Below are positions 3,108-17,858 of a DNA stretch of 64,000 bases, piece by piece. Under the pieces are notes generated by a model. That model was not told the DNA's origin, did no database searches, and was given only the letters and a program-made list of their open reading frames with translations. Location: NCBI GenBank assembly GCA_965261545.1, contig CBDHDF010000010.1, positions 512,001 through 576,000 on the forward strand. The letters run 5' to 3'. Position 1 is the stretch's first letter; each line of letters opens with the position of its first letter. Position numbers and translations under genes: made by a program. Source of the DNA: Bdellovibrionales bacterium. GTDB lineage: Bacteria > Bdellovibrionota > Bdellovibrionia > Bdellovibrionales > UBA1609.

Positions 3108-4115
3108 TTATGAGGCTGTTTTAATATATTTTACATTTTTGTATTTCCTGTAGGGTTTAAATTTTTCTTCAGACTTCAAAACTCCTAATGCTAAAGCAGC
3201 TATTCTTCTTGAAATGGCGTTCCTGGCTTTGTGTGGTGGATAATTTCTTTCTGTAATTAACTGCTCATACCAGTCATTGAATTCATTTTTCCCACCAATA
3301 ACTGTCAATGCAGCCACCTTAAAAACACATTTCATTTGCCGACAAGATCTAGAGTTTTTCTTTCCATAAATTTTTCCACCACTAACTCTAGCCAGCTTCA
3401 CTAGTCCACAGTAACTCCACCAAGAATTGCGTTCAAATCGATGAGGGTCTACAACACGAGCTACGATTTTAACAGCATTGATGTGTCCAATTCCTGGAAT
3501 TCCCTGGAGGTGTTTAATTTCTTTGTGTTTTCTGGCCAGTCTCTTGAATTCTGCGTCATAACGCTTCTTCTCTTCTTCATAAAAGGCAATGCTCGTATCC
3601 AATCCAAGGAGTACGAATATATCTTCTGATCTTTTTAACTCTGTTTTTTTCTTCGCATTTTCATGGGAGGCTCGAAACAATGCTGATCTCTGGTTTTTGC
3701 TTCGAACTCCTGCTTTGATAACATCTTCATATCCACTGATAATTTTTCTAAGATAAATAAAATCATCCCCTGAATGAAAGACTCTTTTTAAAAGACCTGA
3801 ACGCAACAGATGAACCAGCTTCTGAGCATCAATTTTATCATTCTTGGGTCCCTCACTCAGTAATTTATTGCGACAGGGATCACAAATCAAGAGTTCATCA
3901 ACATGATCTTTTAACTCTGTATATAGCCACTGTGAAGCCGTACTTTCTTCAATGGTGAGAGCTTTTGTGCCTTTAAGACTCTTCAAGTAGATTTGGAGTT
4001 CACTAACATCAGCTTTCACATCAGTGGCCTTGATGGCATTAGATTTGGCTGTCATTCTTGCAATGGCCATGTTGCTTTGCGCCCAGTCAACGGCGATATA
4101 ATGATCGTACTTCAT
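3108..4115 (-). CDS. IS110-family DEDD recombinase (intact copy)
   Basis: Motifs AVDWAQ, TIEES, KNDKIDA, IPGIG helix-hairpin-helix and SGG. The start is placed at MKYDHY after the RBS aggagg. Confidence 0.93.
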   Translation of the reverse strand: MKYDHYIAVDWAQSNMAIARMTAKSNAIKATDVKADVSELQIYLKSLKGTKALTIEESTASQWLYTELKDHVDELLICDPCRNKLLSEGPKNDKIDAQKLVHLLRSGLLKRVFHSGDDFIYLRKIISGYEDVIKAGVRSKNQRSALFRASHENAKKKTELKRSEDIFVLLGLDTSIAFYEEEKKRYDAEFKRLARKHKEIKHLQGIPGIGHINAVKIVARVVDPHRFERNSWWSYCGLVKLARVSGGKIYGKKNSRSCRQMKCVFKVAALTVIGGKNEFNDWYEQLITERNYPPHKARNAISRRIAALALGVLKSEEKFKPYRKYKNVKYIKTAS

Positions 4116-4208
4116 AGGTTCCTCCTCCTTAGGTGGTTCTTTGTAACTAAATTTGTTCTCTGCCATTCATTGTAATAATAAATTTTTCGCCTGCTTATCG
4201 GTTTTTGG

Positions 4209-4378
4209 CTTGCTCGTTTGGGGCCTCTCACCCGTGAGAGGAGGCCCCAGCGAGCAAGGGAAAGAGTGAAAGATGCGCTGCACTCCCCAGTCCGTCTAGC
4301 GAAGCGGCAATTAGAGTGACAGACGCGGAGCGGCTGGCCACGATAATTGAGGACTGGGAAAAGAGTGCTAAGCATCTT
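4209..4378 (-). ncRNA. Candidate IS110 bridge RNA core, copy 1
   Basis: Two consecutive long stem-loops in the non-coding leader of the IS110 gene. Mirror image of 6108-6277. Confidence 0.55.
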
Positions 4379-4549
4379 GATCGGCTGTCTACATCTAAAT
4401 TGTGTGAGGGCAACCAAGTTCCTAAGCGATTTCTGTACTTTAGTCACATTTAAATGCTTGAAGTTCTCTTGGGGAACTCGGAGGCTCAAGACTATTTTTT
4501 TTGCATATGGCATGTATGTTTGAACGAGACTTTGGGTGACCATCTTTTT

Positions 4550-5936
4550 CGATTTACCGCTTAAGAATGGTTGAATTTATCCTAAGAAAGGTGTTGTTTT
4601 AGCAAATAAAATATGTGACATTATTTTTAAAGGAGCATTGGAGACTTCAAAATTTTAAATTTACAAAGGAGCGAACAAAATGACAAGTTCGCGTCACAAA
4701 CCACAAGAATATTATTTCTTATTTACCCAAAGAATTCAACAAGAATCACTGCGTTAATGAAAATAAAACTCTAAGAAACAGGAAAATCACCCCAAAAATA
4801 TTTTTCTTTTTCATTCTTCAACTCGCCTGCAATATGACCTTTGCAGGTTACTCCTCAAATGCCCAAATACTTCAAACCCTTATTGAGGAGTTTCCCTCTC
4901 TTGCACAAAGCTCTTTATGTGTCTTCAGACAAAAAATATCCTTTTATTTTTTTAAAAATATTTTCGACAATCATCTCAAAGACTCTTGGGGGGCACTAAA
5001 AACTTATCAAGGATTTCACCTTGTAGGCATTGATGGAGACGAATATAGCCTTAGTGCGACAGGTGATGCGTTGGAGCAAGGGTATCGTGGTCGCGGGGCT
5101 CCTGAAGATAAAGAGACTTATTATCCACGCATGTATGTTGTAAAAGCTATTCATTTACTATCTGGAGTCATCTGCGGATTTTATCATGCAAATACCTGTA
5201 ATGAGATTCTAGGAGCCTTAGGAATTTTAGAAAATTTACCCCAAAAAATCATTGCTGTTTATGATAGACTCTACTTATCAAAGGACTTGCTACAAGCACA
5301 TCAAGTTCATGGTAGCTATTTTATCTTCCGCTGCAAAGTAGGGTCTACATTTAAAGAGATAGTTAATTTTGCGGCAAGCCATATGAGAACAGCAGATGTT
5401 GTCTTAGATGGTGTGAGTGTACGGCTGATAAAGATCAAAAATCCTAAGACAGGCAAAGATTTGGTCTTTGCCACAAATCTTCCTAAAAAGAATTGGAGTA
5501 AGAAGAAGATCGAACAAATTTATCAACTTCGTTGGGAGTGTGAGACCAGTAATAGAGATCACACTCTTTCTATAAATATGGAATCCTTGCATTCAAAAAG
5601 TATTAATGGAGTCTTACAAGAGCTGTATGCCTCATTCATTCTTAATAATATGCTCCGCCTAGAAGCTCATGAAAATGGAGGTTTCGAGGTAAGTCCAGAT
5701 ACTCCCATTACGAAGAAAGTTAATTTTAAATTTTTAGTAGAAATGTCTTTTGATTGGTTGGAAAAGATATGGTTTGAAAAAATTGAGGAATTTGTGAATC
5801 TGATGAAAAATCTTGTTACAAAAAATATCTCAAAGAGAAAGAGGATGTCAAGATGGTACGAAAGAGAGATTAAAGGATGTAGGAAGTCCTATAAAAATAG
5901 TGCTCTTGTTGTTCGGAGGGTTTAAACGGTAAATCG
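4550..5936 (+). mobile_element. IS4-family element A (about 1387 bp) at the centre of an inverted duplication
   Basis: TIR cgatttaccgcttaa / ttaaacggtaaatcg, with the transposase stop inside the right TIR. The exact outer base is inferred because the flanks are inverted copies of each other rather than a direct TSD. Confidence 0.75.
4684..5925 (+). CDS. IS4-family transposase; the frame is open 50 codons upstream of the first ATG (4834)
   Basis: Motifs GIDGD, VYDRLY and YQLRWECE. The upstream part encodes RNRKITPKIFFF, similar to RNRKFNPQIFFF in element B. Confidence 0.88.
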   Translation, partial: QVRVTNHKNIISYLPKEFNKNHCVNENKTLRNRKITPKIFFFFILQLACNMTFAGYSSNAQILQTLIEEFPSLAQSSLCVFRQKISFYFFKNIFDNHLKDSWGALKTYQGFHLVGIDGDEYSLSATGDALEQGYRGRGAPEDKETYYPRMYVVKAIHLLSGVICGFYHANTCNEILGALGILENLPQKIIAVYDRLYLSKDLLQAHQVHGSYFIFRCKVGSTFKEIVNFAASHMRTADVVLDGVSVRLIKIKNPKTGKDLVFATNLPKKNWSKKKIEQIYQLRWECETSNRDHTLSINMESLHSKSINGVLQELYASFILNNMLRLEAHENGGFEVSPDTPITKKVNFKFLVEMSFDWLEKIWFEKIEEFVNLMKNLVTKNISKRKRMSRWYEREIKGCRKSYKNSALVVRRV

Positions 5937-6107
5937 AAAAAGATGGTCACCCAAAGTCTCGTTCAAACATACATGCCATATGCAAAAAAAATAGTCTTGA
6001 GCCTCCGAGTTCCCCAAGAGAACTTCAAGCATTTAAATGTGACTAAAGTACAGAAATCGCTTAGGAACTTGGTTGCCCTCACACAATTTAGATGTAGACA
6101 GCCGATC

Positions 6108-6277
6108 AAGATGCTTAGCACTCTTTTCCCAGTCCTCAATTATCGTGGCCAGCCGCTCCGCGTCCGTCACTCTAATTGCCGCTTCGCTAGACGGACTGGG
6201 GAGTGCAGCGCATCTTTCACTCTTTCCCTTGCTCGCTGGGGCCTCCTCTCACGGGTGAGAGGCCCCAAACGAGCAAG
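6108..6277 (+). ncRNA. Candidate IS110 bridge RNA core, copy 2
   Basis: Stem 1: aagatgc..gcactc..cccagtc pairs with gactggg gagtgc..gcatctt (6108-6216). Stem 2: cttgctcg..ggggcc..ctctcac pairs with gtgagaggcccc..cgagcaag (6228-6277). Confidence 0.55.
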
Positions 6278-6370
6278 CCAAAAACCGATAAGCAGGCGAA
6301 AAATTTATTATTACAATGAATGGCAGAGAACAAATTTAGTTACAAAGAACCACCTAAGGAGGAGGAACCT

Positions 6371-7148
6371 ATGAAGTACGATCATTATATCGCCGTTGAC
6401 TGGGCGCAAAGCAACATGGCCATTGCAAGAATGACAGTCAAATCTAATGCCATCAAGGCCACTGATGTGAAAGCTGATGTTAGTGAACTCCAAATCTACT
6501 TGAAGAGTCTCAAAGGCACAAAAGCTCTCACCATTGAAGAAAGTACGGCTTCACAGTGGCTATATACAGAGTTAAAAGATCATGTTGATGAACTCTTGAT
6601 TTGTGATCCCTGTCGCAATAAATTACTGAGTGAGGGACCCAAGAATGATAAAATTGATGCTCAGAAGCTGGTTCATCTGTTGCGTTCAGGTCTTTTAAAA
6701 AGAGTCTTTCATTCAGGGGATGATTTTATTTATCTTAGAAAAATTATCAGTGGATATGAAGATGTTATCAAAGCAGGAGTTCGAAGCAAAAACCAGAGAT
6801 CAGCATTGTTTCGAGCCTCCCATGAAAATGCGAAGAAAAAAACAGAGTTAAAAAGATCAGAAGATATATTCGTACTCCTTGGATTGGATACGAGCATTGC
6901 CTTTTATGAAGAAGAGAAAAAGCGTTATGACGCAGAATTCAAGAGACTGGCCAGAAAACACAAAGAAATTAAACACCTCCAGGGAATTCCAGGAATTGGA
7001 CACATCAATGCTGTTAAAATCGTAGCTCGTGTTGTAGACCCTCATCGATTTGAACGCAATTCTTGGTGGAGTTACTGTGGACTAGTGAAGCTGGCTAGAG
7101 TTAGTGGTGGAAAAATTTATGGAAAGAAAAACTCTAGATCTTGTCGGC
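6371..7148 (+). pseudogene. IS110 recombinase copy 2, truncated by IS21 element 1
   Basis: Near-identical to copy 1 up to ...NSRSCR. The sequence then switches to the IS21 terminus TGTTAGCTGACAATTAAAATG at 7149. Confidence 0.92.
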
Positions 7149-7964
7149 TGTTAGCTGACAATTAAAATGCCCCACCGTCGCCAATGAAAAGTGGCCACTT
7201 TTCAGAGGAGGACCTATGGTGATTTTTGGCATTGTCAACCGAGACGCATATAATCAATTGATATTACTCATAAAAAGGCTCCGAGCTGATAAGAACTCCT
7301 TTTGGGTTCTTGTCGACCTGGAAAGGGGCTCCGTGTTGGAGAGTCCTTCCATGACAGCCTATTCAGGTTCCATATTTGTCATTTGTAGACTGTTTCTGGA
7401 TTTCAATGAGGTTAAATATATAGTCAAGAAAAGCCTGTTTAGGCTGTGCCCATTTTCTAAAGTATTTAAATTCCACAAGATTCCAACATTTGCCTCAATT
7501 TTCATGGAATTTCTTTTTGAAGACAGGCTTCCCTTAAAGCCGTCGCCAATTAAAATGTCCCACTTTCAATATGGAGGTTGTCGCCAATGAAAAGTGACCA
7601 ATCTTCAGGGAGTGTTCAAATACTAGACAATGAAGTCTCTTCTTCTGATATAGATACTAAGCTCACAGAGTCCCTCCCTTTTGCAACTCAAAAGGTTAGC
7701 AATGAGGAGGATCTTATGATTAGTCAATACACTTTCGGCCGCATTCGTGACCTGAGTCACAGTGGTAAAAATAAGACAGAAATATCTCGTGAATTAGGGA
7801 TCAATCGTAAGACGGTGGGCAAGTACTGTGAGTCCAACACCCCACCGAAGTACAAGGCGAGGTCCAAAAGAACTCGCCCAGATCCCCTTAATGGATATAT
7901 GGATCGGGTGAAGTACTTTTTGAAGTTGAACCCAAGTAACACCGCCCGTGAAATATATGAGCTA

Positions 7965-10272: not shown

Positions 10273-12826
10273 CAATGGCATTCGTTTTTGCAGAAGGTTT
10301 TTCCACATTTTTCTGACTCCCTCTAACATACTGAGTTAAGGGGGCTTTTATCTTTTTTCTTTTTCCGAAAAAAAATACTTGAGTCCACCCCATCGTTGTG
10401 TCACATTATATTTGAACCATTCCCAAAGGGGAGAGACTCAAATGGACCCACGCATAGAGACATTGCCTTCAACAACTTTTTTTGGAAGACGCTTGACGCG
10501 CAAGCAAATTGCCGACATTCAAAAGACGGTGGCGCTATTTCCTTCTTTAAGTCGCCGTGAACTGGGTTATACAGTTTGTGAACATCTTGGTTGGCTAACT
10601 CCCAAAGGTGATCATCGCATCCAATCGTGCCTTCGTATGCTTGAGACGCTAGAGGAACTTGACATTCTATCCCTGCCAGAAAAAGACATGTCAAAGCGGA
10701 GTGTCCCCTCCAAAAAAATCACTTGGACACACCGAACAGATGAAAAGCCTCTCATCAACGATAAACTAGACTCATTGACCCCACTTTCTTTGCAAATCGT
10801 AACTGATCAAGAGGCCATTAAGGAATGGAATGAAGTTGTCGATCGGCATCATTATCTCAATTACAGACGTCCCTTTGGTCCCCACTTACGCTATTTCATC
10901 TTAGATAATTGTGGGCGAAGATTGGGTTGTCTTTTATTTGAAGCTGGCACATCCACTTTGCCTTGCCGTGATGAATGGATCGGTTGGCAAAATCGAGCTT
11001 ACAAAAAGCACTTGAATTTAGTGGTGAACAATAGTCGATTTTTGATCTTTCCCTGGGTAAAGGTTCGCCATCTTGCTTCGATGGCTTTATCTATGGCAAC
11101 TCGCCAACTTCCCACAGACTGGGAGTTAAAACATGCTTTCAAACCTGTACTCATGGAGACTTTTGTCGACCTTACCAAATTTAATGCCACGAGCTATCGT
11201 GCTGCCAACTGGCTTTATTTGGGCAAAACAAATGGGAGTCGTGCCTACAAAAATGTAAAGGGAAAAACTCAAAAAGGTGTTTATGTTCAACCTCTGACAA
11301 AGAATTATCAGTCTATCTTATTGAATGGCCCCCAATGCGCTATCAAGAAACCCGTCGGGAAACCCACCATCAAGCCACATAAGAACTTGGCTGAGCCTAT
11401 GCTAGAGGACTCTTTTGTGCATCTTTGGCAAAACATCATCAAGACAGTGGTTATCATTGCAGATGAGTACGACCGAACCTGGCAAAAGCGTCAACGTGTC
11501 TTGAATACATTGTTGATTATACTTTTCATCTTCCGACTTGTTTTCTCTAAAGGAAAACAAGGTTATGATACAACTTTGATTGAACTTTGGGAGCAGTGTC
11601 GCATATTAGACATTGAACTCCCTCAACCTAAACCAGTTCGGGCATCCACTATGTGTAGTGCACGGGCTAAAGTAGATGAAAATATATTTAAAGTTTTGCA
11701 TGATGAAATTCTTAAACAAGACGGTATATCCAATTCTAGTACCTTATGGAAGGGCCATAAGGTTTTCGCAGTGGATGGATCGAAAATAAATTTACCACGT
11801 CAACTCGTAGATAATGGGTATCAGCAACCATGGGAAAAAGCATGGTACCCTCAAGGTCTTGTCAGTTGCCTGTACCAACTACAGTCGAAGATTCCTGTGG
11901 ATTTTGATCTCTTTGCCCATAACAATGAGAGAAAGGCTGCACAAACTCATTTCAAAAAATTGTTTGAAAACGATGTTGTGGTTTATGATCGTGGCTATTA
12001 TTCCTACGAAATGCTTCATGAGCATAAGGTGCGAAGTCTGCATGCGGTGTTTAGGATAAGGAGAAATGCCAACACTGTTTTTGATGAATTTATTAATAAT
12101 GATCAAAAAGACTCAGTGATCCAAGTCATTCCTAGCAAGCAAATTCTGAAAGAACTACATAAAAAAAAGCCACAAGACGACTTCAAAGCCTACGCTTTGC
12201 GTTTGGTCAAATATAAAATTGGACAAACTACTTTTGTTCTAGGAACAACCTTAATGGATCAAAAAAAATATTCCATTGATGATCTGGCCAATCTCTATCA
12301 TGGACGCTGGAGTATAGAGGAACTGTACAAAATATCCAAAGAACTGATGACCATTGAAGAGTTTCATTCTCAAAGTGAAAGGGGAGTCAAACAAGAATTG
12401 TTTGCACACTTCACACTTATCACTCTGACAAGATTATTTTCCAACTACACGGAAGACCGTCTTAATACATCTCAATCCCATAGTAAAAAACAAACCATGC
12501 AGACAAACTTTAAAAACAATTTACTGACAATTGCAAGAAATATTGAAGGTCTTTTTCTTCAACAAAAGGTAGTGCTTAGTAAAACCCTCAATTGCATCAT
12601 TACAAATATGAAGACCTGCCGACAAAGGCTACGTCCGAATAGGCATTACGACCGAGTTTCTAGAAAACCCATCGGAGTATGGAGACCCAGTAAAGAGGTT
12701 AGGGGGGCTATGGCCAACGGATAATCACATGGATCAAAGAAAAAAACTTGGGGTTAGCCCACCCCCGAGGAGTTAGAGGTTCAAATCCTTAACCGAATGG
12801 GATCTCTCACTAAACGAATGCCATTG
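10273..12826 (+). mobile_element. IS4-family element encoding a DUF4338-transposase fusion, 2554 bp
   Basis: TIR caatggcattcgttt / aaacgaatgccattg. 10-bp TSD ggtgtaaggg (10263-10272, 12827-12836). Confidence 0.93.
10442..12724 (+). CDS. DUF4338 (DruA-like) domain fused to an IS4 transposase
   Basis: N-terminal half: HHYL, LRYF, RDEWIGW, NNSRFLI, HLAS, ETFVD, YRAANW. C-terminal half: AVDGS, VYDRGY, YHGRWSIEE. Confidence 0.88.
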   Translation: MDPRIETLPSTTFFGRRLTRKQIADIQKTVALFPSLSRRELGYTVCEHLGWLTPKGDHRIQSCLRMLETLEELDILSLPEKDMSKRSVPSKKITWTHRTDEKPLINDKLDSLTPLSLQIVTDQEAIKEWNEVVDRHHYLNYRRPFGPHLRYFILDNCGRRLGCLLFEAGTSTLPCRDEWIGWQNRAYKKHLNLVVNNSRFLIFPWVKVRHLASMALSMATRQLPTDWELKHAFKPVLMETFVDLTKFNATSYRAANWLYLGKTNGSRAYKNVKGKTQKGVYVQPLTKNYQSILLNGPQCAIKKPVGKPTIKPHKNLAEPMLEDSFVHLWQNIIKTVVIIADEYDRTWQKRQRVLNTLLIILFIFRLVFSKGKQGYDTTLIELWEQCRILDIELPQPKPVRASTMCSARAKVDENIFKVLHDEILKQDGISNSSTLWKGHKVFAVDGSKINLPRQLVDNGYQQPWEKAWYPQGLVSCLYQLQSKIPVDFDLFAHNNERKAAQTHFKKLFENDVVVYDRGYYSYEMLHEHKVRSLHAVFRIRRNANTVFDEFINNDQKDSVIQVIPSKQILKELHKKKPQDDFKAYALRLVKYKIGQTTFVLGTTLMDQKKYSIDDLANLYHGRWSIEELYKISKELMTIEEFHSQSERGVKQELFAHFTLITLTRLFSNYTEDRLNTSQSHSKKQTMQTNFKNNLLTIARNIEGLFLQQKVVLSKTLNCIITNMKTCRQRLRPNRHYDRVSRKPIGVWRPSKEVRGAMANG

Positions 12827-15704: not shown

Positions 15705-16019
15705 TGTTATACGATACTTTATTCTGACTAGAATTCGCCTTTATTTTTTATTTTTCTTTGACCATCCCTAGAGAATTATTACATTCCCTTGACTAAGTCT
15801 TGTCATAACCTCCCCATGAGTTTAATACTCTGCATCAGGAGGTGTTATGATTTTAGCTACTTTTGTATCAACGGATGACCTTGTAAAAGAAGGTAAGAAT
15901 TACAATTGGAAGAGGCCATGTAAGTGCCAAAATCCCGGATGTAAAAGTGAGAAGCTCTGGGGCCATGGCTATGTGAAGAGATACTTTTTTGCATGCTCTG
16001 AAGCGGTCTACCTCAAGCG

Positions 16020-17436
16020 CAATGCCGTTTCCTTAAGCCACCACACCCCTCTGCCTCTGCGTTAAGCTATTTCTTTTAAAAGAACTCCCAGCCCTTTTGA
16101 TAGACCTTTCATAGCTTCTTTTGAAGTGCCTCCTCTTCTCCATTGAAATCTTCATCAGCAACTTTATCTGCTTCCTAAATTTCTGATAGAGCCCCGCAAC
16201 AAAAAGAGGGATGCTATCCATTATGAAATCAAGAATCAGTTTAAAGTTAGGTTTTTTGTAGTCATTTTTTACCAACTGATTCACACTGTCTTCATCCTCA
16301 TTTATGCTCATTTGAATCTTTGTATAATTGAAGAGCCAAAAATAAGAATACAGCTCTTGCAATATTCCATTAAGGCTTGTTGAGTGCCACTGCTCCATTT
16401 TCATTGTCGATGTAAAATCACGAAATGTCGTTTCTATTTCCCAACGACGAGAGTAAAGAGCAACCATATCCTTCTTGTCCAAGGAGCCATGCGGAAGATT
16501 AGTGGCCAAAACAGAGAACTCCCCAGTCTTTGGGTTTTTATACTTATAGAGATGAATGACCACCCCCTCAATAACCATTCGTGAATACCAACCTGGGCCA
16601 TTAAATAAATTTACAATGGGGATAAAAGTAGAGCCTCGCTTACAACGCGCAATAAAGAAGTTACTGGCTTGAGCATGGGCCTTAATAATCTCTGTAGATA
16701 AATAAAGCCTATCGTAGAGAGTTATGCTATTACTCTCAAAACTACCTATCATTTGAATAGCATTGGCGATTTCGTTGAGAGCGGGAGAAAAGCAAAGATT
16801 CTTTGTCACACCCGATAAAACGTCATAAGCATGAGATAGATACATACGTAAGAAATGAGTTTCCATCTCATTTGGGCAAGGGTACCCACAATAACCCTCC
16901 TTTAAAAGATCTTTAGAGCGAGGAAGTGCTAATTGGTCGCCATCTATGGCATAGATATAAAAACCATGAAACGTTTTTCTCAATGGTTCGTAGTCTGTAA
17001 TCAGAGATTCAAAGATATCTTTGAAAAATAGGTAAGAAATACTTTGACGTATCTTGCTGAGACTGCTTTTGACTGGCATGAGAAGCAGGTCACCAAAATG
17101 AGTCCATACCGTCTTAAGAGCGATTTGGTAGCCTTCGTAATTTGTTCCGGAAATAAGATAGATAATGGTAAAAAAGAAAATTTGAGGATTAAATTTTCGA
17201 TTCCTTTTTTGTTTTTCTGGATCGACAAGGTGCTCTGGCTTGAAGGAAGAATCAAGTTTTGGTAGAATAAAATGGTCATCTGTGACGCGAACTCGTCATT
17301 TGGGGGCTTTCGAGATCAATATTGGATTGCATGTGACTTACTCCTTGGTTGAGGGTTGGGTGTAAAATAAAACAAGTCTTATTCTTGTCGATTTATCTAA
17401 TAATTTCAAGAGATTTTTCTTAAGGAAACGGCATTG
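16020..17436 (-). mobile_element. IS4-family element B, 1417 bp
   Basis: Perfect 18-bp TIR caatgccgtttccttaag. 10-bp TSD acctcaagcg (16010-16019, 17437-17446). Confidence 0.95.
16033..17295 (-). CDS. IS4-family transposase; the frame is open 72 codons upstream of the first ATG (17079)
   Basis: Motifs AIDGD, LYDRLY and YSRRWEIE. The upstream part encodes RNRKFNPQIFFF. Confidence 0.88.
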   Translation of the reverse strand, partial: RVRVTDDHFILPKLDSSFKPEHLVDPEKQKRNRKFNPQIFFFTIIYLISGTNYEGYQIALKTVWTHFGDLLLMPVKSSLSKIRQSISYLFFKDIFESLITDYEPLRKTFHGFYIYAIDGDQLALPRSKDLLKEGYCGYPCPNEMETHFLRMYLSHAYDVLSGVTKNLCFSPALNEIANAIQMIGSFESNSITLYDRLYLSTEIIKAHAQASNFFIARCKRGSTFIPIVNLFNGPGWYSRMVIEGVVIHLYKYKNPKTGEFSVLATNLPHGSLDKKDMVALYSRRWEIETTFRDFTSTMKMEQWHSTSLNGILQELYSYFWLFNYTKIQMSINEDEDSVNQLVKNDYKKPNFKLILDFIMDSIPLFVAGLYQKFRKQIKLLMKISMEKRRHFKRSYERSIKRAGSSFKRNSLTQRQRGVVA

Positions 17437-17858
17437 ACCTCAAGCGCTGGCGGTGTCCTCACTGCCACAGTGTTATAACGACAAGACCCAAGTCGTTCTG
17501 GCGTCGTTTTCAAGAGACAAAGTCTCGTATTTTCGAAGCATTACGACATCGTCTGAACCCCAAGATTCCCAAGGCATGGCCCCTTTGGACAACGAGGCAA
17601 AGAGCGGGGCACTGGCTGAAAAAACTTCTTAATCACGCTAAGGCTTATAATCTGATGAAAGAAAAAGATCCACTTAGCACAGTGGCCTTTTATCAAGAGA
17701 AAAACCTGGACATTTTTGGTTAACGAAGTTTGCCAGTGCTCCCATTTATTTTCAACCTACCGTTTCTTGTCATTAACAAAGAGTCAGGAAGTTGTGTATC
17801 TCTTATTTCAAGAAAGATTTCCAATAACGGAAATTAAATCAAAGAAAGAGAGGTCAAA

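What the first reader, a model, noticed from the sequence alone, without database searches (positions are those of the whole stretch)
4678..4834. Two divergent IS4 transposases lack an in-frame start and both open at the same 21-nt motif: candidate +1 recoding or translational control signal
Seen: element A has AAATGACAAGTTCGCGTCACA at 4678-4698 (+). Element B has AAATGACGAGTTCGCGTCACA at 17301-17281 (-). They match at 20/21 bases although the surrounding DNA and the TIRs differ. In both, the motif ATG is in a short leader frame fed by an AAGGAG RBS. In A the leader is MTSSRHK..., 25 codons. In B it is MQSNIDLESPQMTSSRHR*. The transposase is in the +1 frame, starting right after the overlapping TGA (xVRVT...). 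It runs 50 (A) or 72 (B) codons with no ATG/GTG/TTG, yet encodes the conserved RNRKxxPxIFFF segment. The motif contains TGAC-N8-GTCA with a central TTCG, so it could be a hairpin or an operator. Inference: full-length transposase needs a +1 frameshift or non-canonical initiation. Programmed frameshifting is established for IS1, IS3 and IS630 (mostly -1), and I do not know of it in IS4.
Basis: partly seen in the sequence, partly recalled or inferred. Interest (0 to 1): 0.72.

Follow-up and report, generated by a model that had tools for sequence, protein, structure and literature searches.

The report
Built-in frame switch in IS4 transposases
A family of bacterial jumping genes puts the start codon of its transposase one base out of frame and keeps a short, strongly conserved signal just behind it, so the cell very probably has to switch reading frame within the first five codons, by a kind of signal not described for such elements.

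Summary
Confirmed, and much wider than two elements. Element B has 74 full-length copies in this genome; 119 of 119 copies covering the motif keep the out-of-frame ATG, so this is not decay or error. In a metagenome sample chosen by a C-terminal peptide, 40 of 47 distinct relatives (median ~37% identity) have the same layout, 2 are doubtful and 5 start in frame and lack the motif; 16 of 16 readable elements from 15 other genomes have it too. Consensus over 57 elements: SD–ATG ACN NNN NCG CRN YR; CGC at nt 11-13 in 56/57, while nine other conserved Arg use all codons. A stop at leader codon 6 in 14/57 confines the switch to nt 4-17. The skipped-over N-terminus matches Tn5's N-terminal domain. 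No slippery run exists. Best mechanism (inferred, untested): ribosomal +1 shift after codon 3, skipping nt 10, which tracks nt 9 (41/57). Rivals: -2 re-pairing on CG-CG, or a polymerase skip. I found no report of this in IS4, or of +1 ribosomal frameshifting in any IS, in the papers searched.

The parts
4558..4565 (+). Element A: inner remnant of left TIR (outer tip replaced by the end of an IS110-like element)
   Evidence: compared with the intact-ended copy on contig C4
4666..4671 (+). Element A: Shine-Dalgarno AAGGAG, 8 nt before the out-of-frame ATG
4680..4757 (+). Element A: leader ORF, 25 codons plus TAA, in the frame -1 to the transposase
4680..4697 (+). Element A: frame-switch signal, nt 1-18 (quasi-palindrome nt 2-17; proposed skipped base nt 10 = 4689; invariant CGC = 4690-4692)
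4684..5925 (+). Element A: transposase frame, 413 codons after TGA 4681-4683; first in-frame ATG at 4834
5921..5928 (-). Element A: inner remnant of right TIR
17419..17436 (-). Element B: left TIR (18 bp, IS4-subgroup type)
   Evidence: consensus over relatives
17341..17346 (-). Element B: Shine-Dalgarno AAGGAG, 8 nt before the leader ATG at 17332
17276..17332 (-). Element B: leader ORF, 18 codons plus TGA; contains the motif ATG at 17299
17282..17299 (-). Element B: frame-switch signal, nt 1-18 (proposed skipped base nt 10 = 17290; invariant CGC = 17289-17287)
16033..17295 (-). Element B: transposase frame, 420 codons; first in-frame ATG at 17079; DDE residues D118, D195, E288 invariant in 72 homologues
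16020..16037 (+). Element B: right TIR
16010..16019 (+). Element B: 10-bp target duplication (second copy 17437-17446)

Best explanation
A clade of IS4-subgroup insertion sequences of Bdellovibrionota makes its full-length transposase by a programmed change of frame within the first five codons. SHOWN by comparison: ribosomes are loaded at an SD-ATG in the frame -1 to the transposase; the switch must lie in nt 4-17; the signal is kept at nucleotide level and is lost when an element regains an in-frame start. INFERRED: the switch is ribosomal and +1. After three leader codons the tRNA on codon 3 takes nt 10 as its wobble partner (four bases for one residue), the slow in-frame codon NCG is passed over, and tRNA-Arg(ICG) reads the overlapping CGC, much as in yeast Ty3, where the P-site tRNA has no good +1 re-pairing either. 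Most ribosomes stay in frame and stop after 5-25 codons, which keeps transposase low. The surrounding quasi-palindrome (nt 2-8 with 11-17) is a second layer of unknown role, probably a weak hairpin over the AUG or a protein site. Odds: recoding in nt 4-17 by any route about 0.87; ribosomal about 0.72; this particular +1 site about 0.45.
For: Not decay: 74 full copies of B, 99.0-100% identical, 54/74 with 10-12 bp target duplications, 66/74 with an intact long frame; 119/119 copies covering the motif without indel; no indel in contigs of 4 runs from 2 samples. Conserved layout in 40/47 metagenomic and 16/16 genomic relatives; 5 in-frame starters lack the motif and lie nested among motif bearers in at least three separate places of the tree (quick tree). 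When the start moves upstream (B, L034, L123) it stays in the leader frame. Stop at nt 2-4 of the transposase frame in 53/57, leader stop at codon 6 in 14/57. CGC 49/49 CGN-type Arg at the motif versus mixed codons at nine other Arg columns; third-base information 2.0 and 1.0 bits at motif codons versus median 0.11 over 41 four-fold columns. Codons 2-3 are better conserved as leader residues (0.99, 1.83 bits entropy) than as transposase-frame residues (1.97, 2.37); from nt 11 the transposase frame has Arg 56/57. nt 9 = nt 10 in 41/57 (shuffle mean 15); the excess, 0.44, is above all 140,468 variable column pairs of the same genes (max 0.41). Identity is 22/22 where codon 3 is read by a G34 tRNA, but 7/18 where it is read by inosine tRNA-Arg, and all 18 stay within A/C/T. 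The genome has no C34 tRNA for Ser, Thr, Pro or Ala among 36 tRNAs; none among 31 of 35 tRNA loci read in G249 either, two of its Ser tRNAs not seen. The direction is the same in all 57, which Antonov et al. (PMC3711429, passages) take as the mark of ribosomal rather than transcriptional shifting; longest homopolymer in nt 4-17 is 1-3 in 55/57. The N-terminus is needed: AlphaFold pLDDT 88-96 for residues 11-70, model 7-369 aligns with Tn5 transposase 3-463, Z 19.7.
Against: No expression data: no RNA run, ribosome profile or peptide was available. Leader codon 5 is Arg in 53/57 with synonymous variation, more conserved than the overlapping transposase-frame codon (Val 34/57), which favours the -2 rival. 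Y at nt 16 (57/57) and R at nt 17 (57/57) are not explained by the +1 model. The nt 9/10 link did not reach significance in independent-pair tests (5-6 pairs, median p 0.125-0.6; direction mostly agreeing; parsimony 13 + 14 changes but 18 jointly) and wobble compatibility by distinct type was p = 0.067. Three elements break the wobble rule (L035, L101, L036). After a +1 move the P-site tRNA keeps only one or two pairs, and no bacterial case of such a shift is known to me. Three elements (L074, L115, L133) have an open in-frame ATG/TTG 5 nt upstream, with the SD only 3-4 nt away. About ten database proteins have plausible in-frame N-termini whose DNA I did not see, so in-frame lineages may be commoner than 5/47.
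Confidence: 0.45

Rival explanations
1. Ribosomal -2 shift at codon 5: peptidyl-tRNA-Arg on CGN (nt 13-15) slips back to CGC (nt 11-13) on the CG-CG repeat while the A site waits on a YAN codon (often TAG). The product is one residue longer than the +1 product.
For: CG-CG at nt 11-14 in 52-53/57; Arg in both frames at this place; nt 15 varies synonymously in the leader frame; stop in the A site in 14/57. -2 shifts are known in phage Mu and others (PMC5009743, passages).
Against: Four elements have CAT or CAG at codon 5; does not explain why nt 10 follows nt 9; G14 is also explained as the palindrome partner of Y5. In yeast antizyme the shift is +1 despite -2 re-pairing potential (PMC5009743).
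Confidence: 0.2
2. RNA polymerase (or an RNA-processing step) drops one base of a doublet at the centre of the palindrome, giving a minority of in-frame transcripts.
For: A doublet lies within nt 8-11 in 48/57; the doublet sits exactly between the palindrome arms; +1 transcriptional realignment is known in several IS (PMC5009743; PMC6211511, listing only).
Against: No run longer than 3 in 55/57; 9/57 have no central doublet, 8 of them the type allowed by inosine wobble; only one direction is seen in 57 elements (criterion of PMC3711429).
Confidence: 0.12
3. Another ribosomal route inside nt 4-17: a short hop over the hairpin, a shift at the first translocation after AUG, or in one sub-clade read-through of the TGA in an upstream ATG-ACA-TGA.
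For: T2-R17 and G3-Y16 pair in 57/57 and 56/57 with G-U-type variation; 8 elements have an in-frame start 5 nt upstream closed by TGA; reporter work shows +1 shifts at codon 2 of lacZ at percent level (PMC8324841, passages).
Against: L123 has CTA in place of the ATG and L034 TTG with the SD-ATG further upstream, yet both keep the signal; 46 of 57 elements have no upstream in-frame start to read through from; TGA is a normal stop here (494/1594 long ORFs) and no Sec tRNA was found.
Confidence: 0.1
4. No frame switch: the transposase starts at a non-AUG codon in its own frame or at a downstream ATG, perhaps by re-initiation after the leader; the motif is only an operator or inhibitory hairpin.
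For: The palindrome could be a DNA site; its half resembles the TIR tip in 5 of 7 bases (untested). Many elements have an ATG at positions 44, 73 or 82.
Against: First in-frame ATG/GTG/TTG is scattered from codon 11 to 130, first ATG from 30 to 298; conserved residues F18, R31, R33, P37 lie upstream of nearly all of them; no conserved near-cognate start; leader stops fall anywhere from codon 6 to 26, so there is no coupling point; a start at Met73 would lose the region matching Tn5's N-terminal domain; no copy of the palindrome upstream of host genes; an operator does not explain the conserved frame.
Confidence: 0.1
5. DNA-level switch or decay: copies are silent until a rare one-base deletion at the palindrome centre turns one on, or the elements are dead and moved by an in-frame helper.
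For: A repeated central base is what a staggered cut and fill-in or a slip would leave; in-frame relatives exist elsewhere.
Against: 0 of 119 genomic copies and none of the contigs in 4 runs carry an indel there (contigs drop rare variants); 0 of 57 elements show the single-base form; no in-frame member of the clade was found in this genome; purifying conservation of the N-terminus and catalytic residues.
Confidence: 0.03

Closest known systems
IS4 family, subgroup IS4 (De Palmenaer et al. 2008, PMC2266710; section 6 read)
   Same: DDE transposase with Tn5-like fold, 1.36-1.52 kb, ends fitting -AATR--------WTW, 10-bp target duplication.
   Different: The paper lists a single-ORF transposase as a family hallmark; here the start is out of frame in most members. 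The K of YREK is replaced (T in B). Nearest named plasmid IS4 elements are only 22-26% identical.
Programmed frameshifting in IS1, IS3, IS5 and IS630 (Atkins et al. 2016, PMC5009743, passages; Antonov et al. 2013, PMC3711429, passages)
   Same: Transposase needs a change of frame, presumably to keep its level low.
   Different: Those join a DNA-binding OrfA to a catalytic OrfB, mostly at A-rich slippery runs, by -1 ribosomal shifting or by transcriptional slippage. Here the first frame gives only 3-5 residues, the site is GC-rich with no run, and the direction is +1/-2. The review states that IS elements using +1 ribosomal frameshifting had not been identified.
Yeast Ty3 +1 frameshift, GCG_AGU_U, and glass-sponge mitochondrial +1 shifts (PMC5009743, passages)
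   Same: No realistic P-site re-pairing; a slow in-frame A-site codon competes with an overlapping +1 codon read by an inosine-34 tRNA; one base is passed over.
   Different: Eukaryotic or mitochondrial, mid-gene, fixed P-site codon; here bacterial, at codon 3-4, P-site codon variable with nt 10 matching nt 9, and embedded in a quasi-palindrome. Resemblance only, not tested.
IS50/Tn5 transposase and its inhibitor (PDB 1MUS, 4DM0, 1B7E)
   Same: Whole-length structural match (Z 19.7); a downstream in-frame ATG would give an inhibitor-like protein without the N-terminal domain (inhibitor biology recalled).
   Different: Tn5 transposase has an ordinary in-frame start (recalled); 9-12% sequence identity.

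Membership tests
IS4 family, subgroup IS4 | DDE triad and RNase H-like Tn5-type fold | tested here: met
   D118, D195, E288 invariant in 72 homologues; NF033592 129.8 bits for B, cut-off 115; A 100.7, below the cut-off; Tn5 Z 19.7
IS4 family, subgroup IS4 | Ends -AATR--------WTW, size 1400-1650 bp, direct repeat 10-13 bp | tested here: met
   B: 1417 bp, TIR fits, 10-12 bp duplication in 54/74 copies; consensus over about 50 left and 51 right ends; criteria; some members are slightly under 1400 bp
IS4 family, subgroup IS4 | Y(2)R(3)E(6)K motif | tested here: inconclusive
   Y281, R284, E288 invariant; the K position is T in B and T or V in most relatives (rough pattern match)
IS4 family, subgroup IS4 | Transposase encoded by a single ORF from its start codon | tested here: not met
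   SD-ATG out of frame in 57 elements, stop at nt 2-4 of the transposase frame in 53/57; met only by the 5 in-frame relatives
IS1/IS3-type -1 ribosomal frameshift | X_XXY_YYZ or A_AAG slippery site, -1 direction, OrfA domain upstream | tested here: not met
   Direction is +1/-2; no such site in nt 4-17; leader gives no domain
IS630/IS5-type transcriptional slippage | Homopolymer or run pair long enough to realign the RNA-DNA hybrid; both directions found in a family | tested here: not met
   Longest run 1-3 in 55/57, 4 in 2/57; one direction only
IS630/IS5-type transcriptional slippage | Indels in transcripts at the site | not testable with these tools
   No RNA holder listed
prfB/Ty1-type +1 shift with P-site re-pairing | P-site codon that can re-pair in the +1 frame (CUU_U type), next to a stop or hungry codon | tested here: not met
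   No codon in nt 4-17 gives conserved +1 re-pairing; codon 3 takes 11 forms
Ty3-type +1 shift without re-pairing | Slow in-frame A-site codon and well-read overlapping +1 codon | tested here: inconclusive
   NCG in 56/57 and CGC in 56/57; no C34 tRNAs for these boxes, tRNA-Arg(ACG) present; decoding speeds not measured
Ty3-type +1 shift without re-pairing | Junction peptide showing one base skipped | not testable with these tools
   Needs mass spectrometry
Selenocysteine or genetic-code read-through of TGA | Upstream in-frame start, Sec tRNA or reassigned TGA | tested here: not met
   TGA ends 494/1594 long ORFs, no Sec tRNA among 36; upstream in-frame start closed by TGA in only 8/57

The most novel reading that the evidence does not exclude
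A new class of bacterial recoding signal: an 18-nt, start-proximal, GC-rich quasi-palindrome with no slippery run that makes the ribosome read four bases as one residue through wobble re-pairing alone (or makes the polymerase drop the central base). It would be the first +1 ribosomal frameshift in an insertion sequence and the first bacterial counterpart of the Ty3 non-slippage shift, with 57 natural variants that map its rules.
Probability: 0.5. Interest if true: 0.9.

Novelty: new variant of a known kind. Interest (0 to 1): 0.8.

Why it matters
It adds IS4 to the IS families that need recoding and supplies the case a 2016 review said was missing (+1 ribosomal shifting in an IS). Whether +1 shifting can occur without P-site re-pairing has been argued for decades from yeast Ty3; an 18-nt bacterial signal with dozens of natural variants, testable in purified translation, makes that question directly approachable. 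Shifts within the first five codons are invisible to frameshift finders that need two overlapping ORFs, so a whole class may be missed; gene callers truncate these transposases (many database entries begin at model positions 26-55). The signal has not stopped element B from reaching more than 100 copies in one genome.

Tried and rejected
The search for related loci with P0002 in genome contigs gave one irrelevant hit; with alignment A1 in viral contigs only distant (21-33%) IS4. No RNA holder listed, so no expression test; contigs of 4 runs showed no indel but drop rare variants. SD+motif pattern in viral contigs: 42 matches, none near an A1-type transposase; the nine with longer frames or repeats that I inspected (eight viral, plus L151) were chance or inside other genes. 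Pattern in 401 phylum genomes: 9 matches in 7 genomes, 7 at known elements, 1 at a 5' fragment (L151), 1 at an unrelated ORF (L152); reversed control 1. Profile scan of the own genome outside A/B copies: 4 hits at 12 bits or more, best 16.4 (training 14.9-29.1), none before a long +1 frame; no palindrome set before host genes, so no sign of a host regulon. TGA as Sec/Trp/Cys: rejected. Expanded-anticodon tRNA: none among the 36 standard calls. UUCG tetraloop: not conserved. 'MTC..GRV' in-frame N-termini in databases: in the three such DNAs seen the SD is 3-4 nt from the in-frame codon and 7-9 nt from the out-of-frame ATG, and 8 sister elements have TGA there, so probably mis-annotation, not proven. 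Independent-pair tests of the nt 9/10 link were underpowered. The careful tree did not finish; the quick tree was used. Plasmid collection: only distant IS4. Earlier scan notes: none on this element. Literature searches without a report of this signal or of IS4 frameshifting; PMC3196728 and PMC8944449 passages held nothing on it. The library lacks most subscription papers and ISfinder records, and supplements were not read, so a prior annotation cannot be excluded.

Full report
Observation. In both elements an AAGGAG lies 8 nt before an ATG whose frame is -1 to the transposase; the transposase frame opens after a TGA that overlaps the motif ATG and has no ATG/GTG/TTG for 50 (A) or 72 (B) codons. 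The proteins are 38% identical IS4-type DDE transposases. Below, nt 1 is the A of the motif ATG (A 4680, B 17299).

Not decay, not error. B is 1417 bp with 18-bp TIRs. The genome holds 74 full-length copies (99.0-100% identical, 48 distinct), 54 with 10-12 bp target duplications and 66 with an intact long frame. Of 121 hits to B's 5' region, 119 cover the motif and none has a gap. Contigs of four public runs (two samples) show no indel in B. A has two long copies and two 5' fragments, all four with the motif. TGA is an ordinary stop in this genome. A homologue named Pseudobdellovibrionaceae by NCBI is encoded in G491, which is in the same order as this genome, so the hosts are most likely Bdellovibrionota.

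The layout is a clade trait. To avoid selecting on the motif I scanned metagenomes with a pattern for a C-terminal peptide present in 95 of 122 homologues. Of 61 loci, 10 lacked the 5' end and 4 were dropped as at least 90% identical to another, leaving 47: 40 have the motif with an out-of-frame start, 2 (L097, L124) have an out-of-frame SD-ATG, a degenerate motif and a further stop 8 codons on, and 5 (L071, L075, L082, L100, L108) have an SD and start codon in frame and no motif. Median pairwise identity was 37.5%. In genome searches 16 of 16 elements with a readable 5' end, from 15 other genomes, have the motif; one locus was unreadable, the fragments without a 5' end were not usable, and two distant relatives (L138, L139) lack it while an equally distant one (L142) has it. 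In a quick ML tree the in-frame starters are nested among motif bearers in at least three places, which reads most simply as repeated loss with frame repair; the root is uncertain. About ten database proteins with plausible in-frame N-termini were seen only as protein, so in-frame lineages may be under-counted.

The signal. For 57 motif-bearing elements (A, B, 40 metagenomic, 15 genomic; L134 left out for a second frameshift nearby): ATG 55, T2 57, C11 56, G12 57, C13 57, purine at 14 in 57, pyrimidine at 16 in 57, purine at 17 in 57. An SD-like word lies 4-11 nt upstream in 52; in three of the other five (B, L034, L123) the SD-ATG has moved 6-11 codons upstream but stayed in the leader frame, one is at a contig edge and one has none. 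The transposase frame is closed at nt 2-4 in 53, and the leader stops at codon 6 in 14, so any switch lies in nt 4-17. The constraint is on nucleotides: the Arg at nt 11-13 is CGC every time, whereas nine other conserved Arg columns use five or six codons; third-base information is 2.0 and 1.0 bits at the two motif codons against a median of 0.11. Outside these elements the signal is essentially absent from 401 phylum genomes and from the host genome.

The N-terminus is needed. First in-frame starts scatter from codon 11 to 130, downstream of conserved F18, R31, R33 and P37 in most elements, and no near-cognate start is conserved. AlphaFold models residues 11-70 at pLDDT 88-96 and the model aligns from residue 7 with Tn5 transposase from residue 3 (Z 19.7); Tn5 residue 70 falls at model residue 87. 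Tn5's first 70 residues are its end-binding domain (recalled). In-frame relatives place the conserved Leu-Pro at residue 12-17, as a product starting at the leader ATG would.

Mechanism. There is no slippery run (longest 1-3 nt in 55/57) and only one direction; by the criterion of Antonov et al. (passages) that favours the ribosome. Codons 2-3 are conserved as leader residues, and nt 11-13 as transposase-frame Arg. The base between them, nt 10, takes all four values but equals nt 9 in 41/57, a link stronger than any of 140,468 column pairs in the same genes. It is exact in 22/22 elements whose codon 3 is read by a G34 tRNA, relaxed to A/C/T in the 18 read by inosine tRNA-Arg, and G occurs only after G. 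That is what one expects if the wobble base of the codon-3 tRNA moves from nt 9 to nt 10. The in-frame competitor is always NCG, for which this genome has no C34 tRNA. Cryo-EM of a model +1 shift at codon 2 shows four mRNA bases accommodated and the wobble base re-paired on the fourth (PMC8324841, passages), though there the other positions re-pair too. The closest natural analogue is Ty3. Against this: tree-aware tests of the link were underpowered, three elements break the rule, and Arg at leader codon 5 (53/57) fits a -2 slip on CG-CG equally well. A central doublet in 48/57 keeps a polymerase skip alive. The palindrome arms pair with G-U-type variation at nt 2/17 and 3/16 but not at 4/15, where changes are anti-compensatory, and fold weakly; their role is open. 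All mechanistic steps are inference; none was measured.

Relation to known systems. Ends, size, target duplication and fold place the clade in IS4 subgroup IS4, but it fails the single-ORF hallmark of De Palmenaer et al. (section 6 read). Atkins et al. 2016 list frameshifting for IS1, IS3, IS5 and IS630, do not mention IS4 in the 300,000 of 449,034 characters held, and state that IS elements using +1 ribosomal frameshifting had not been identified (passages). Eight searches found no later report, within a library that lacks ISfinder and most subscription journals.

Verdict. A real, selected, clade-wide frame switch at the very start of IS4 transposase genes, with a signal unlike described ones. 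Recoding about 0.87; ribosomal +1 after codon 3 about 0.45. New variant of a known kind; interest 0.8.

Noticed in passing
window 3337-4564 and 5922-7149: Element A sits between two inverted copies of an IS110-like element (ORFs 3108-4166 and 6320-7165) whose ends replace the outer tips of both TIRs; all 4 genome hits of that IS110 end abut an A-type TIR, suggesting an IS110 that targets this TIR.
   Followed up: partly
L138 (G589), 5' end of the transposase: A distant IS4 relative, sister to motif-bearing L142, has SD-ATG AAA AAG in the frame that would need a -1 shift; one example only, may be a programmed A_AAG shift or a broken copy.
   Followed up: no
window 10379-12724 (+): IS4 transposase fused to an N-terminal DruA/DUF4338 domain, multi-copy in this genome.
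   Followed up: no
5' untranslated regions of L033, L066, L068, L074, L080, L081, L084, L106, L120, L127, L128, L133: A-run / hairpin / T-run inverted repeats, like two-way terminators, lie just upstream of the SD and may shield the transposase from outside transcription.
   Followed up: no
L038, L040, L080, L095, L106, L111, L116, L117: A three-codon start-Thr-stop mini-frame in the transposase frame overlaps the leader ATG; gene callers take the open versions of it as the transposase start.
   Followed up: partly
L100 and L108, first codons: These in-frame starters keep Pro-Arg-Tyr, the leader-frame reading of codons 4-6 in motif bearers such as L094, L098, L121, but have lost G12 of the signal: probable revertants.
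   Followed up: partly
whole genome G000: An NCG codon followed by C occurs 1871 times in 1392 long ORFs against 2638 expected; may be avoidance of a shift-prone junction or only CGC/CpG-type bias.
   Followed up: no
window 1-22000: Almost all of this stretch is nested IS elements (IS4 of three kinds, IS110, IS21-like and integrase/ATPase pairs), many interrupting one another.
   Followed up: no
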